From positions 80,414,001 through 80,478,000 of the forward strand of contig OZ024743.1 in assembly GCA_964016885.1 (NCBI GenBank): a stretch of 64,000 bases of DNA, given 5' to 3'. Positions 63 to 61,147 of the stretch are shown piece after piece (the stretch's first letter is position 1; each line of letters opens with the position of its first letter). A program made the position numbers and the translations under genes. The notes beneath the pieces are model-generated. The model saw only the letters and a program-made list of their open reading frames with translations. It did not search any database and was not told where the DNA came from. The stretch comes from Eledone cirrhosa (taxonomy: Eukaryota).

Positions 63-625
63 TATATATGTAGAAGTTATATGTAATTTGTTGGGATACA
101 ACAAGCAAATATTTTTATAACTGATATAAAGCACTCAACAAATTTTTGGAGTAAAAACACAATATATTAACAAATGGAAACTATATTTATAAAACCATAT
201 TTATTTCATTATACATATTTCAAAGACACCAAAGCAAATTATGGCGCGCTTTCATCATATAAAATATAATATAGATCAATTTTATAAACAAATATTGACA
301 TACACTTAAAGAATGCGACCATGTCGGTTGGAAGCTCCCGGATAGCTCACTATCCGGGAGCTTCCAACCGCATTCTTTAAGGGTATGTCAATATTTGTTT
401 ATAAAATTGATCTATATTATATTTTATATGATGAAAGCGCACCATAATTTGCTTTGGTGTCCTTGAAATATGTATAATGAAATAAATATGGTTTTATAAA
501 TATAGTTTCCATTTGTTAATATATTGTATTTTTACTCCAAAAATTTGTTGAGTGCTTTATATCAGTTATAAAAATATTTGGTTGTTGTATCCCAACAAAT
601 TAAATATAACTTCTACATATATATA
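63..625. mobile_element. Fold-back PLE terminal fragment between (TA)n tracts
   Basis: Near-perfect inverted arms about 280 bp long, apex near 348-351 (ggatag-ctca-ctatcc). Right arm resembles the PLE 3' end at 33860-34140. Decayed hammerhead core (ATGATGA...GAAA) and ACTC..GAGTGC at 534-555. Confidence 0.8.
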
Positions 626-732
626 TATATGAGAGAGAGATTAGGCGAGAGTATATGTATGTATATATATTATATATATATATATATATATATATATATA
701 TATATATATATATATATATATATATATATATA

Positions 733-1299
733 TATATTTATAAGTCGTTTGGAAGCCTCGACAATGCAAATGGGTAAATCTCCGGGTAACAAGGTCCGGT
801 GGTGGAGAGAGAGATATGTAAGTGGGTGTACGTTGAGATGCGTGGTGTGTATAAGATGTGTGAGATGTGTAGAATGAAGGGAAGAGTAAAATAATAAAAA
901 TAATAATAACAACACAAGAGAGAGAGTTACCTTGGGAGAGATTTAATAGTCCCTATATATTTCGGATTCACATCCATCAACTGTGGTTTTTTCCGGGGTG
1001 GGGAAAAGGTTGTCTGTCGGACAACTCGGAACGCGTCTTTCGCTGTTTGTTGATTTGAATATCTCTCTCTTGTGTTGTTATTATTATTTTTATTCTTTTA
1101 CTCTTCCCTTCATTCTACACATCTCACACATCTTATACACACCACGCATCTCAACGTACACCCACTTACATATCTCTCTCTCCACCACCGGACCTTGTTA
1201 CCCGGAGATTTACCCATTTGCATTGTCGAGGCTTCCAAACGACTTATAAATATTTACTTATTGTTCCACAATACTTCAAGCAAACTTCAATACTCTCTT
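733..1299 (+). mobile_element. Fold-back element with spacer, (TA)n-flanked
   Basis: 733-926 is the reverse complement of 1062-1253. About 135 nt spacer and 45 nt unpaired 3' tail. Same architecture as the PLE fold-backs, but no clear hammerhead. Confidence 0.6.
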
Positions 1300-2204
1300 A
1301 TATATATATATATATATATATATATATATATATATATATATATATACACACATACACACACACACACATATATATATATATATATGAGAGAGAGATTGGG
1401 CGAGAGTGTATGTAAGTGTGTGTGTGTATATATATATATATATATATATATAAATGACCCATATAGAAAAGTAGATGAAGAAGGAAGCAATCAATAAGCC
1501 CTCCCTAATGAATTCACTACTAAATTGGTATTCCAGCTTTGTGAAATTTATACATACGTACACAGACCGAACCACACAATATATATATAAAGAGCGAGAG
1601 AGACAGGCACATACAGTAGTTATATTCACTTATATATGCGTGTGTGTGTGTATTTGAGAGAGAGAGAGAGAGTGAAAGAGAGAGAGAAAGGGAGAGAGAG
1701 AGGTAAAGAAAGATCGATTTGAAAATAGAATCGTTGTTACAAGTCATATATTTGACAAATTAAGATAGAGGAAATATCTGTCTCATACGTTCTATCCCTC
1801 TACACATCCTCTAACTTCCCAATCTCGTTCTCTAGCTTCTCTTAGTGAAGCGGAGAATTCCCAGAAACGTTAGAGCGTCGGTTAGACAACCTTGTGACAT
1901 CTTGTTCTCCTCATTGAGTTCAAATCTCTTTAAGGTCTCATCTCATCTGCCCTCCATTCTTTCAATCTTGCCTAATAATTACGAGTTCTATACTGGGGAC
2001 ATTTTTCTCTCCCCCAACCCTCTCTCTCTCTCTCTCTCTCTCTCTCTCTCTCTCTCTCTCTCTCTCTCTCTCTCTCTCTCTGTATATATATATATATATA
2101 TATATATATATATGTATATATCATTCCCTCTTTCTCTCTCTTTCCATATACTCACACACACATATATATGATTATTATCTATCACATCTATATATATATA
2201 TATC

Positions 2205-2770
2205 TATGTGTATTTATTTCGTTTCTGAATTTGTTTAGCAAGATTCTTTATCTGAAATCGTGTGTTGAAACCGATATTGTTATACTTTGGGAGGGTCATG
2301 TTGCCAATAAGAAACACACGCACCAGTTGCTTTCACTTCAATTTAATTTAATATATATTTATAAATTTACAAATTTATAAATTTCTGGTTGGTTGGTTGG
2401 TTCCACAACCAGATAGTTGTTTATATATATATAGTCATAGTTCTTTCGTCACACACTCTGTGACCTCTTCAGTGACTGGGGATTTCTTTCTTCGTTTCTG
2501 TGCCTTTCCTGAAAATGGCGTAGGATAGAAGAAAGGAAAGGCACAGAAACGAAGAAAGAAATCCCCAGTCACTGAAGAGGTCATAGAGTGTGTGACGAAA
2601 GAACTATGACTATATATATATAAACAACTATCTGGTTGTGGAACCAACCAACCAACCAGAAATTTATAAATTTGTAAATTTATAAATATATATTAAATTA
2701 AATTGAAGTGAAAGCAACTGGTGCGTGTGTTTCTTATTGGCAACATGACCCTCCCAAAGTATAACAATAT
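2205..2770 (-). mobile_element. Fold-back PLE-derived element with a hammerhead in each arm
   Basis: Arms 2274-2510 and 2534-2770; unpaired tail 2205-2273. Same family as 46640-46895 and related to 3927-4330. Confidence 0.8.
2567..2611 (+). ncRNA. Minimal type-I hammerhead ribozyme (mirror copy 2433-2477, minus strand)
   Basis: AGTCA-CTGAAGA-GGTCATAGAGTGTGTGAC-GAAA-GAAC-TA-TGACT: 5-bp stem I, stem II, vestigial stem III, CUA triplet. Confidence 0.75.
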
Positions 2771-2786
2771 GTGTATTTATATATAT

Positions 2787-2935
2787 GAGTTCGGATCTAG
2801 CTGTCGAAACGGCTGGAGCTGAGCCGTCGGGGTCCTGACACTTTTCCTATTACCCACTCTACTACCCTAAGTATCGAGTACTCTGGCGCGTTATGGTCCA
2901 CTTGGTTCCTTGCCACACTTTCTTTGTTCATATTA
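2787..2935 (+). mobile_element. PLE-type 3' fragment with the 3' half of a hammerhead
   Basis: GAAA-CGGCT...AGCCG-TC-GGGG at 2806-2832 (full stem III, GUC triplet). ACTC..GAGTAC at 2856-2881. Same family as 53424-53640 and 61031-61147. Confidence 0.65.
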
Positions 2936-58499: not shown

Positions 58500-58525
58500 A
58501 TATATATATATATATATATATATAC

Positions 58526-58950
58526 TCTGTGGGGGGGAAGCTATACATGAAGGAAAAGTACGCTTTGAAACGACCCGAAGAAGGGCTTGAATGTGGAGTT
58601 GCCAGGAAGCGTGGGAGAGAGAACCTGCCTCAATAAATCTTGATTAAAATGTCACAAAAAGGAGCCATGTAAAACGAGTTGATGCAGATTACGGTAGTGC
58701 ATATAGTATAACAATTTGCCCTCAATGTAGTAAAATCTTCCAATCAGCAGGAGGCCTGAGGCATCTCATGAAAGTACCTGGCAACCAACCCTCGATTGCT
58801 GTTGCCAAATGTTATGTCTGTAACATCTGTGACAGAGAATGTAGGCCTCTTGCTCACCTAAAATGTCACATCCGTGCCACACACATGCTGGAACGTATTT
58901 TAATATTTTAAACAATAGTTATACTTGAATGCGAGTTATCTGCCATCATA
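58526..58950 (+). mobile_element. Decayed RTE-like LINE 3' fragment
   Basis: W..AIHEGKVRFETTR, broken C2H2 fingers CPQCSKIFQSAGGL and CNICDREC, ending in ..CTGCCATCA(TA)n like the other RTE ends. Confidence 0.6.
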
Positions 58951-59504
58951 TATATACACACACATGTATATATATATTTACACACATATGCATATATATA
59001 TATATATATACACAAACACACATATATATACACACATATGCATATATATATATATATATATATACACACACACAGTAGTTTTTTTCATTTACACATTTTC
59101 TCTTCCTTGTTTGATATATTTTTTGGTGTGTTTCCGTGTCGTGATGTTTTCAAACTGTCTTGATAACGAAATTAATTTTAGCACGTGTCTCTTTCCTTTA
59201 AAAACAACAATCGACTGAGCCAAAAGGAAATTTGTCACTTCTCATCCGAAGCTTCTATCATCTGTCTCCTATCAGTATTTGGTGTATAATGTCCATAAGA
59301 CTCTCCTCCACTAACATAATCGACCAATCCATCTTGCTGAAAAATTGGTACCACATTTTGGAAAGTCATATCACCCAAAGTAAGCACCGTGACTGACTTC
59401 TTTATAATTATCCCTTTTGATAAAACCGCCCTAATATGGCCCCTGGTTCCCTCATACAAAACAGATTATTTATCTAAAATCTTTCCATCCTAATTTTCTG
59501 TAGA

Positions 59505-59640
59505 AAGCGCATGGCTTAGTGGTTAGAGCTTGCACTCGAAAGGTTGTGAGTTCAATTCTCGAACTGTGTGATGTGTTGTCTCCTTGAGCAAGACACTTTA
59601 TTTCACGTTGCTACAGTTTACTCAACTGTAGAAATGAGAT
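59505..59640 (+). mobile_element. tRNA-derived SINE, second family (CORE-like)
   Basis: A box TGGCTTAGTGG, B box GAGTTCAATTC and TCCTTGAGCAAGACACTT. Confidence 0.7.
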
Positions 59641-61030
59641 GATAGGCCTGGGGTCTCTATCATTAAATTACCCAAGACACCTCCAACGAGATATACCTTG
59701 GAGGAGGCCAGCTAAACCTGCATAGGTGTGAGCTGTCACACACACGCACACATAGGTGGGAGCTGTCACACACATCACACATAATGTAAGAACCATTTTT
59801 TAAAGTTATGTTTTTCAAACATCAACTTCGTTGCAAATTCTTGATTATTTCAAAAATTATTTGTAAATGTCAGGCAGTATCTTTCTCTAGATATAGGGTA
59901 ACGAAAGGGTTAACGAGGTTTTAGGCGTAAGAGAGCCGGATCAAAGGACTGCTCTTGTGTTTGTTTTTTTCTTTTTTTAATCACTAAATTCTATTTTTAA
60001 ATCTCGCCGAGAGCAATATTGGCTCTCTTACATTGACTCTTTTATTTCTGAGTCAATAAAAAGTACCTTTCCACGAGTGGTGAGTTGGTGAAATTGTTAA
60101 TGAGTCGGTGTCTGATCTGGTTCTGTGCATGTTCAGCCCAAATTCTGCCATGAGTTGTAACAGACAAATAACAGCAATGGAAAGACTTATTTCCCCGGTC
60201 TGAGCTAAAAGACTCTGCGAAACATCCAGTCAATCTCTAACGACGCCATCAAAGCCTGGTCCATAGAGTAATACTTTATCAACACAGAGGCAAGGTTTAC
60301 TTCCGCGGGATTTGAACTCAAAGAGCGGAAACAAATAACAAGGCATTTAATCCGACACTCTAACGATTGAGTTTAATCCTTCCAATCGGGTGTGTTCCAT
60401 TTGAGTAGAAGGATGGAGGAAGTCTACACGGTTACTTGACATGAGATAATTAATAGGTAATTTCCCCTAAATCATACCCTAGTGGTATCAAAATGAAGTA
60501 TGGATATATTTAAACTAATTATTAATATTAAATTATTAAATTAAATCTTTAATATTAAGGTAAATTTTAATCTTTAATTTTGATTTCTAATTTTTAATTT
60601 TAATTTAATTTAAATCTAATTTTTCAACCTATCATTATAAGTATTATAATCAAAACGTAATGAATCCTGCATTATAAATATTATTCTTCCACGTTATTCT
60701 CATTTCTTCACTCTTTTAGATATACTTACGCTGTTTATCTATTCATGCACTCTATTTTCACTATCAATATATATAATCGTTCTTTCTTTCCTCTTCTATC
60801 TTTCTCCTTCCTTTTTGTTTCTTTTTTTCTTTTTTTCTTTTTTCTTTTTTCTTTTTTCTTTTTTCTTTTTTCTTTTTTCTTTTTTCTTTTTTCTTTTTTC
60901 TTTTTTCTTTTTTCTTTTTTCTTTTTTCTTTTTTCTATTTTTTTTCTCTCTCCCTCACATATCACCTTCTTCCAACAGTTTTTTTTAAATTAAATATAAC
61001 TTCTGCATATATATATATATATATATATAT

Positions 61031-61147
61031 ATAGGAAAAAGTATGACCTTGGGTCATACTTTTTCCTATTTCCCACTCTCCTACCCTAAGTATTGAGTAC
61101 TCTGGTGTGTTATGGTCCATCTGGTTCCTTACCACAATTCCTTCGTT
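61031..61147 (+). mobile_element. Minimal fold-back (18-bp arms) plus tail
   Basis: ataggaaaaagtatgacc-ttg-ggtcatactttttcctat; ACTC..GAGTAC at 61075-61100. Confidence 0.75.

What the first reader, a model, noticed from the sequence alone, without database searches (positions are those of the whole stretch)
534..61100. Conserved 3' ACTC-N(11-19)-GAGTRC motif shared by otherwise dissimilar families
Seen: ACTC starts at 534, 2856, 3672, 29419, 34054, 34256, 35133, 48562, 53566, 58218 and 61075. Each is closed by (T/C)GAGTGC or (T/C)GAGTAC and lies about 45-80 nt before the 3' end. The 11 copies fall into about 6 families whose loops and flanks differ, including two elements with coding sequence. 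Inference: a conserved cis-acting RNA stem or protein-binding site (RT or endonuclease recognition, or a processing signal). I do not know of a description of it.
Basis: partly seen in the sequence, partly recalled or inferred. Interest (0 to 1): 0.85.

Follow-up and report, generated by a model that had tools for sequence, protein, structure and literature searches.

The report
Twin hairpins set Penelope copying starts
The short motif is a conserved bulged hairpin that one group of telomerase-related jumping genes carries twice in front of its gene, and because the two ends of an inserted copy stop about six letters before one hairpin and the other, it likely tells the element's enzyme where to start copying, which would explain the puzzling one-sided tail of these insertions.

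Summary
Confirmed, and larger than reported. The motif is a bulged hairpin, RCUC-inner stem-loop-stem-UY-GAGY-RC, of Hydra-clade Penelope-like elements (PLEs). It has 147,221 genome matches against 13,818 for the control. Its inner stem covaries only in the 2-nt-bulge register across 59 foreign family representatives.

Full-length junctions carry two copies: ribozyme, hairpin A, linker, hairpin B, ATG. Mirror-image insertions are 76 A+B, 1 B+B, 0 A+A and 9 with one other end, of 86. Either arm can be the longer one (12 versus 11), which argues against fold-back copying.

Likely mechanism (inferred): two RT subunits dock on A and B and prime from both target strands. The sequence between the two starts is the known PLE tail. 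There is no biochemical or RNA evidence. One high-copy family has only a cut-down B, and a co-resident non-Hydra PLE makes tails without the motif. Eight paper searches found no description. This scan has reported the same system before on other pieces of this genome.

The parts
131..152 (-). Hairpin A, family of 534/34054; inverted partner of 534, the only B+B pair found
534..555 (+). Hairpin A (inner CAA/UUG); long end 62 nt later at (TA)n
2803..2832 (+). 3' half of a hammerhead ribozyme (GAAAC, stem III, GUC) upstream of hairpin 2856
   Evidence: sequence by eye
2856..2881 (+). Hairpin A (inner UACU/AGUA), family with intact 3531-nt tandem copies elsewhere in the genome
3672..3698 (+). Hairpin A (inner CAGU/ACUG); the inverted arm at about 3569-3620 ends at the A site
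26713..27507 (+). ORF remnant: C-terminal Hydra-type GIY-YIG region with CxCx5C
29153..29188 (+).
29419..29446 (+). Hairpin A (inner UAAGG/CCUUA) of a separate short element; no canonical hairpin B found for this family
30827..34140 (+). 5'-truncated coding Hydra PLE with an inverted 5' arm (short A end near 30827), ORF remnant from 31822, hammerhead core at 33949 and a long (B) end at about 34140
34054..34076 (+). Hairpin A (inner CA/UG, UC bulge)
34256..34276 (+). Hairpin A, family whose hairpin B is a cut-down GCAC/GUGC stem
35133..35153 (+). Hairpin A, same family; mirror-image A+B insertion
48562..48588 (+). Hairpin A (inner UAUUC/GAAUA); hairpin B seen in junction copy L386
53566..53591 (+). 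Hairpin A, 2856 family; inverted arm ends at the A site
58218..58239 (+). Hairpin A (inner UAC/GUA), 34256 family; A+B insertion
61075..61100 (+). Hairpin A, 2856 family, one inner pair broken; minimal mirror-image insertion
61286..61308 (-). Additional hairpin A of the GCUC/GAGC type, top hit of the foreign-trained covariance model; ribozyme core at 61409

Best explanation
The motif is a conserved bulged hairpin present twice (A and B) between the hammerhead ribozyme and the start codon of Hydra-clade Penelope-like elements, inserted copies end about 6 nt 5' of one hairpin or the other, and the two hairpins likely act on the RNA as docking sites that position reverse-transcription start. Shown: the structure by covariation, the twin arrangement, the fixed register of ends, and the strict one-A-plus-one-B pairing of the two ends of mirror-image insertions. 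Inferred steps: (1) a read-through or multimeric transcript carries ribozyme-A-linker-B; (2) two RT-endonuclease subunits bind A and B; (3) the GIY-YIG domains nick both strands of a (TA)n target; (4) each 3'-OH anneals to a 2-6 nt UA-rich patch just 5' of a hairpin and primes cDNA about 6 nt from the stem base; (5) the two cDNAs are joined head to head. The stretch from start A to start B (hairpin A plus linker, 71-99 nt here) is copied only by the B-primed arm and is the one-sided tail.
For: Pairing: for the first inner pair genome-wide, C-G 32,378 versus C-other 3,296, and U-A 99,175 versus U-other 4,063. In 59 foreign family representatives, inner pairs 1-4 beat shuffles only at bulge = 2 (Watson-Crick 56/59, 36/58, 21/36, 15/28; p <= 0.0015), with no signal at bulge 0, 1, 3 or 4. 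In one search, 89% of cells pair against 22-54% for slid registers. The outer pair is mostly A-U in this genome and G-C in foreign families (57/59). Twin arrangement: 50 of 61 foreign ORFs have the motif within 60 nt of the ATG (shuffle mean 0.37) and 30 of 50 have two; intact tandems here show A and B; published Hydra-1_Ajap shows both by eye. Ends: in samples picked by upstream anchors, 29 of 30 copies of one family end at A or B; 301 of 331 terminal ends across seven families with terminal copies do so; offset -6 fits 131 of 160, although TAT/ATA patches are commoner elsewhere in seven of eight reference junctions. Pairs: 76 AB, 1 BB, 0 AA, 9 other of 86; 41 AB of 44 in loci chosen without the hairpin. 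The A arm is longer in 12 and the B arm in 11 of 25 asymmetric insertions. An ORF-less 208-nt tandem keeps ribozyme part, A and B (L398). Precedent: Poseidon RT starts internally at two sites that bound the tail and is predicted to be a dimer (PMC11167929).
Against: There is no biochemical or transcript evidence. The high-copy 34256 family (29,603 anchor matches) has only a 4-bp GCAC/GUGC stem at B, with no bulge and no RC, yet ends there; 8 of 12 of its B ends fit -7 to -9 rather than -6. No canonical B was found for the 29419 family. A Hydra-like family at window 55.2-56.6 kb showed one end type and no clear motif in 25 loci (the query included that end). A co-resident non-Hydra PLE has two ends and a 58-nt tail without this motif, so the motif is not a general cause of PLE tails. 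The isolated hairpins are weak (-3 to -8.7 kcal/mol); the proposed fold is the minimum-energy one at only 7 of 11 sites, and in one junction A and B mispair with each other. 30 of 331 ends fall elsewhere. Foreign end mapping is thin: 12 of 14 divergence points fall near A or B, and some are subfamily differences. 49 of 76 AB insertions have near-perfect palindromic centres, which fold-back models also predict.
Confidence: 0.7

Rival explanations
1. The hairpins direct RNA cleavage just 5' of each stem (by a host nuclease, RNase P-like, or by the element protein), creating 3' ends that are then used by ordinary target-primed reverse transcription.
For: The fixed register and the conserved single-stranded 3' ACU (54 of 59) resemble a processing signal. 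RNase P cutting 5' of a stem is recalled knowledge, not tested here.
Against: One RNA cut before A cannot supply the B end, yet ends pair strictly A+B. Poseidon starts internally on an uncut RNA in vitro (PMC11167929).
Confidence: 0.11
2. The hairpins are read in single-stranded DNA (cDNA or an extruded cruciform) by the GIY-YIG endonuclease, which cuts about 6 nt away to resolve the intermediate.
For: Craig et al. ascribe the tail to endonuclease-mediated resolution (PMC8557442). The D. virilis endonuclease needed the tail sequence in DNA (as cited in PMC11167929). Covariation does not tell RNA from single-stranded DNA; G-U versus A-C counts in inner pairs 2-4 are not decisive.
Against: Hairpin B lies outside terminal copies and is not in a B-ended cDNA. 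A variable inner stem rules out plain double-stranded sequence recognition.
Confidence: 0.09
3. Only B is a start. The mirror arm is a fold-back copy of the first cDNA (or self-priming on an antisense template), and hairpin A is a stop signal.
For: This also gives strict A+B pairing. Many centres are perfect palindromes (49 of 76). Self-priming was proposed for PLE inversions (PMC3846280, discussion).
Against: A copy of the B-primed cDNA cannot be longer than its template, yet the A arm is the longer in 12 of 25 asymmetric cases, by about 2.9 kb in L134. One case (L398) was scored oppositely by the two scripts.
Confidence: 0.05
4. The hairpins serve RNA packaging or translational control (B lies close to the ATG), and the ends are set only by TA microhomology.
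For: B ends 8-60 nt before the ATG in foreign loci, and the bases 5' of the hairpins are UA-rich.
Against: TAT/ATA patches elsewhere in the junction outnumber those near A and B in seven of eight references but attract few ends. ORF-less derivatives keep the hairpins.
Confidence: 0.05

Closest known systems
Hydra clade of C-terminal EN+ Penelope-like elements (Craig et al. 2021, PMC8557442; read parts 2-5 of 10 of the text, a term search of the whole text, and supplement parts 1, 2, 52, 53 plus a motif search)
   Same: DKT, RW(K/R), CxCx5C, C-terminal CxxC and CxH motifs, hammerhead in the pseudo-LTR, (TA)n target, inverted 5' copy and one-sided tail. By eye, the published consensi Hydra-2_Amil, Hydra-2_Ajap and Hydra-1_Ajap contain the GCUC/GAGC-AC hairpin (Hydra-1_Ajap both copies), and Hydra-1_Crog contains variants.
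   Different: The paper describes no hairpin ('hairpin' occurs 0 times) and ascribes the tail to endonuclease resolution. Tails here are 71-99 nt, not 30-40. Units here reach 3.5 kb and more. Supplement figure pages were not read, and one is an image.
Internal initiation at two sites in Poseidon PAc of Anolis (Frangieh et al. 2024, PMC11167929; read parts 1-3 of 4, covering main text, methods and part of the references; supplementary figures gave no searchable text)
   Same: Two internal RT start points bound the tail, downstream of the hammerhead; a protein-binding RNA motif was hypothesised but not identified; a dimer was predicted; both target strands are cut and extended.
   Different: Different clade, starts inside the ORF, no RCUC/GAGY motif by eye in the printed template, and starts reported as non-homologous to the target, whereas Hydra starts sit in short UA patches matching (TA)n. 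By eye only, the printed PAc template has an unrelated bulged hairpin at about +119 to +150, directly 3' of the +111-118 start; this is a lead and was not folded.
LINE/SINE 3' stem-loops and twin priming of L1 (recalled; only a search listing seen)
   Same: A short stem-loop recognised in cis by an RT; inversions made by two primers on one RNA.
   Different: LINE stem-loops lie 5' of the start and are copied, and L1's second primer anneals at random. Here each hairpin lies 3' of its start and both starts are programmed.
Hepadnavirus epsilon and telomerase RNA template-flanking elements (recalled, not checked here)
   Same: A bulged or helical RNA element that fixes where an RT engages its template; PLE RTs are sister to telomerase RT (PMC8557442).
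   Different: Epsilon templates protein priming inside its bulge; telomerase boundary elements stop copying 5' of the template. No homology is claimed.
Non-LTR retrozymes (PMC7229834, passages; bioRxiv 10.64898/2026.07.22.740005, parts 1-2 of 5)
   Same: ORF-less tandem repeats with hammerheads, proposed to be mobilised by PLEs; L398 is such a unit.
   Different: No conserved non-ribozyme cis element was described in the passages seen.

Membership tests
Hydra-clade PLE | DKG motif changed to DKT | tested here: met
   SDKT in both intact families, L124 and L128; D117 and K118 at least 90% conserved in 42 proteins
Hydra-clade PLE | N-terminal RWK motif | tested here: met
   RWR variant in L124 and L128, RWK in P0005; R37 and W38 at least 90% conserved
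Hydra-clade PLE | C-terminal GIY-YIG endonuclease with CxCx5C linker and flanking CxxC/CxH | tested here: met
   Pfam GIY-YIG only weakly (E = 0.002, below cut-off) for one window remnant
Hydra-clade PLE | CCHH motif absent | tested here: inconclusive
   not seen by eye in the translations; no formal test
Hydra-clade PLE | Hammerhead ribozyme in the pseudo-LTR | tested here: met
   cores found by pattern upstream of A in several families and most foreign loci; none seen in the 29419 family or the 580-nt tandem family; cleavage not tested
Hydra-clade PLE | Insertion into (TA)n | tested here: met
   278 of 301 A/B ends abut a TA or CA run
Hydra-clade PLE | Phylogenetic placement with reference Hydra RTs | not testable with these tools
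   the tree holds no named references; the careful search did not finish
Poseidon-type two-site internal initiation | Two discrete genomic 3' ends bounding a tail | tested here: met
Poseidon-type two-site internal initiation | RT starts at those sites on uncut RNA in vitro | not testable with these tools
   needs purified protein
Poseidon-type two-site internal initiation | Start site not homologous to the target | tested here: not met
   junctions mostly fall in 2-6 nt TA patches shared with the target
Known Rfam RNA family | Match at the curated threshold | tested here: not met
   none of the 150 listed of 297 matches reaches its gathering score; nearly all are microsatellite-driven miRNA hits
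Neptune/Nematis or Naiad PLE | CX2-5CxxC zinc finger with CCHH; N-terminal endonuclease for Naiad | tested here: not met
   motif-bearing families have CxCx5C and a C-terminal endonuclease; the co-resident family with CxxxxCxxC lacks the motif

The most novel reading that the evidence does not exclude
Hydra-clade PLEs integrate by programmed twin priming: a dimeric telomerase-like RT-endonuclease reads two homologous bulged hairpins on one RNA as rulers, starts one cDNA 6 nt 5' of each from opposite strands of a (TA)n break, and so writes both ends of the insertion. Unrelated hairpins would do the same job in other PLE clades, and a roughly 150-nt A-linker-B cassette would be enough to mobilise any upstream RNA.
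Probability: 0.5. Interest if true: 0.85.

Novelty: new variant of a known kind. Interest (0 to 1): 0.72.

Why it matters
How PLEs choose their start sites, and why their insertions carry mirror arms and a one-sided tail, has been open for about two decades. The only in vitro study located two internal starts but not the RNA signal. This gives a small signal supported by covariation, a numerical rule (start about 6 nt 5' of each hairpin; one A and one B per insertion) and intact young copies, so the mechanism becomes directly testable. It also offers a view of template positioning in the sister group of telomerase, a marker for annotating Hydra elements and their ORF-less passengers, and possibly a compact cassette for RNA-templated insertion.

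Tried and rejected
- Neptune assignment: my first guess, dropped after reading the Hydra definition.
- Rfam: nothing at threshold among the 150 listed matches.
- Expression: no RNA holder listed, so no reads were laid.
- Hairpin B for the 29419 family: 9 pattern matches, none a real junction by eye.
- the count for one family was contaminated by (TA)n hits from one reference; that reference (L129) was dropped.
- the first hairpin finder was too strict and also returned reverse-strand and chance pairs; it was replaced.
- the ungapped arm measurement left 39 of 76 unresolved; it was redone with gaps.
- Outer-pair counts (G-C 5,877; A-C 1,827, inflated by a 58-nt satellite) do not separate RNA from DNA; the G-U count was not run.
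- Thermodynamic z-scores of isolated hairpins are mostly unremarkable.
- The Frangieh supplement search returned no text hits.
- 'Octopus' was a guess at the host group and was not tested.
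Full report
Observation. All 11 sites are present, plus one on the minus strand at 131-152. That is 12 matches against 1.31 expected. The 3.0-Gb genome holds 147,221 matches against 13,818 for the reversed pattern. In 200 kb flanking the window, 15 of 21 matches lie 35-85 nt before a TA/CA run, against 7.7% of random positions. The 11 sites fall into six families whose tails do not align with each other. Of the two coding elements claimed, one holds (34054). The ORF upstream of 29419 belongs to another family with its own variant hairpin at 29153-29188 (by eye; also found).

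What the elements are. Remnants at 26713-27507 and from 31822, and intact copies elsewhere, encode an RT with a C-terminal GIY-YIG endonuclease and the DKT, RW(K/R), CxCx5C, CxxC and CxH motifs. These define the Hydra clade of Penelope-like elements in Craig et al. 2021 (PMC8557442). Proteins of the families here are 36-49% identical. Hammerhead-like cores lie upstream of the motif in several families, and 278 of 301 mapped ends abut TA or CA runs. Placement on a tree with named references could not be done.

The motif is a bulged hairpin. The spacer resolves into an inner stem and a 2-nt bulge: RCUC, inner stem, loop, inner stem, UY (or UA), GAGY, RC, U. Genome-wide the first inner pair is C-G 32,378 times against 3,296 for C-other, and U-A 99,175 against 4,063 for U-other; these counts are dominated by a few large families. 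For an independent set I fetched 80 metagenome loci encoding relatives (the best 80 of 238). Among 59 family-level representatives chosen only by the outer arms, inner pairs 1-4 exceed shuffles only with a 2-nt bulge (Watson-Crick 56/59, 36/58, 21/36, 15/28; p <= 0.0015), and the outer pair is G-C in 57 of 59. On an alignment of 50 of the 59, 89% of cells pair against 22-54% in slid registers; that tool warns that relatedness inflates its shuffle control. A covariance model built from those 50 foreign sequences alone has as its top 12 window hits 10 of the 11 sites, the 131-152 site and a new site at 61282-61316; it misses 48562. The hairpins are thermodynamically weak, and the proposed fold is the minimum-energy one at 7 of 11 sites, so a protein probably stabilises it (inference).

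There are two hairpins. In tandem junctions the order is ribozyme, hairpin A, linker, hairpin B, ATG. In foreign loci 50 of 61 ORFs with at least 100 nt upstream have a motif within 60 nt of the ATG (shuffle mean 0.37, maximum 5 in 1000), and 30 of 50 with at least 170 nt have two. In this genome A-to-B distances are 71-99 nt in eight reference groups; a two-box pattern has 1,109 matches against 113 for its control. By eye, published consensi from coral and sea cucumber carry the hairpin, and Hydra-1_Ajap carries both. Six 9-mers of the 3' arm gave 7 hits in that supplement: 4 in Hydra termini and 3 in Naiad or Chlamys sequence.

Ends map to the hairpins. I sampled 90 copies by anchors upstream of A. 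In the 2856 family 15 of 30 end just 5' of A and 14 just 5' of B. The other two families are likewise bimodal once offsets of +1 (shared A) are counted, though six copies in one belong to a divergent subfamily. Over all fetched loci of this genome, some of which were chosen by the hairpin, 150 ends lie within -16 to +2 of A, 151 of B, 30 elsewhere, and 36 copies run through (after dropping one reference with a TA run). Among 160 ends with a clean TA junction, offset -6 is compatible with 131, more than any other offset, and is supported in all 13 family-site groups. I ran this test after reading an earlier scan note that gave about six letters. TAT/ATA patches are commoner elsewhere in the junction in seven of eight references, so microhomology alone does not explain the ends. 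Foreign loci give only 14 divergence points, 12 near A or B, some of them subfamily differences.

Both ends are starts. Of 86 distinct head-to-head insertions, 76 are A+B, 1 is B+B (window 131/534), none is A+A and 9 have one other end; in loci chosen without the hairpin 41 of 44 are A+B. Of the 76, 49 have a centre spacer under 25 nt and 2 could not be aligned. Among the 25 asymmetric ones the A arm is longer in 12, the B arm in 11, and 2 are unresolved (L398 was scored oppositely). A fold-back copy of the B-primed cDNA cannot exceed its template, and an A-primed cDNA cannot supply the tail, so each arm was most likely primed on RNA independently.

Mechanism. Shown: structure, twin arrangement, register and A+B pairing. 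Inferred: an RT-endonuclease dimer binds A and B, nicks both strands of (TA)n, and primes about 6 nt 5' of each stem with the help of short UA patches; the two cDNAs are joined, and the A-to-B interval becomes the tail. Frangieh et al. 2024 (PMC11167929) showed for Poseidon two internal starts bounding the tail, cleavage and extension of both strands, and a predicted dimer, but did not identify the RNA signal. I put this at 0.7. Rivals are RNA processing at the stems (0.11), endonuclease recognition of single-stranded DNA hairpins (0.09), fold-back with A as a stop (0.05) and a role unrelated to ends (0.05).

Against and unexplained. The large 34256 family has only a GCAC/GUGC mini-stem at B yet ends there. 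No canonical B was found for the 29419 family, and the roughly 580-nt ORF-less tandem family has a degenerate B and no canonical ribozyme core. A Hydra-like family at 55.2-56.6 kb showed a single end type without a clear motif. A Neptune/Nematis-type family in this window makes two ends and a 58-nt tail without the motif, so the signal is clade-specific. Nothing here shows binding or expression.

Novelty. Eight searches of open-access papers and the papers read gave no description of this hairpin. Subscription papers, Repbase notes, bioRxiv supplements and image-only supplementary figures were not visible. Stem-loops read by RTs are a known kind of signal (recalled); the twin, downstream, ruler-like arrangement is the new variant. 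The scan's own notes report the same system from other pieces of this genome; they are not independent support. Interest 0.72.

Noticed in passing
window 2320-2790, 46640-46890, 3990-4330 (-); loci L440-L469: A Neptune/Nematis-type PLE family (8,887 ribozyme-anchor matches) has two discrete 3' ends 58 nt apart but no RCUC/GAGY hairpin: a ready test case for a different start signal.
   Followed up: partly
window 55232-56578: Mirror-image Hydra-like element whose two arms end at nearly the same point; 25 top genome matches show one end type and no clear hairpin or ribozyme.
   Followed up: partly
L398 (G000:C1:27009400-27010300): ORF-less tandem of about 208 nt made of the ribozyme 3' part, hairpin A, hairpin B and the first codons: a minimal retrozyme-like derivative.
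   Followed up: partly
L371, L376, L378, L382: ORF-less tandem family of about 570-600 nt with GCUC-type hairpin A, a degenerate B and no canonical hammerhead core; some copies begin exactly at hairpin A, and L389 and L391 join its hairpin A to the B position of other families.
   Followed up: partly
L097-L104 (G000:C1:14.23-14.25 Mb): A 58-nt satellite built from hairpin A of the 2856 family.
   Followed up: no
L149, L164, L192, L377: 5' ends of full-length copies also tend to begin 0-14 nt before hairpin A or B (by eye), perhaps by TA microhomology at the second junction.
   Followed up: no
L136:5800-7500: Tandem repeat of about 300 nt with a hammerhead core on the minus strand and no canonical hairpin motif.
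   Followed up: no
window 11720-21400: Two head-to-head LINE copies (APE endonuclease, RT, zf-RVT) forming a large inverted repeat; one has an open 1150-aa ORF2 and a 642-aa ORF1.
   Followed up: no
window 6504-7433 (-): Broken ORFs of an unidentified repeat-like element; no Pfam match for the 179-aa piece tested.
   Followed up: partly
PMC8557442 supplement, Hydra-1_Crog; L128: The third outer pair, U-A in nearly all families, appears as C-G in the published copepod 5' hairpin and as A-U in hairpin B of the 34256 family (by eye): possible rare compensatory changes.
   Followed up: no
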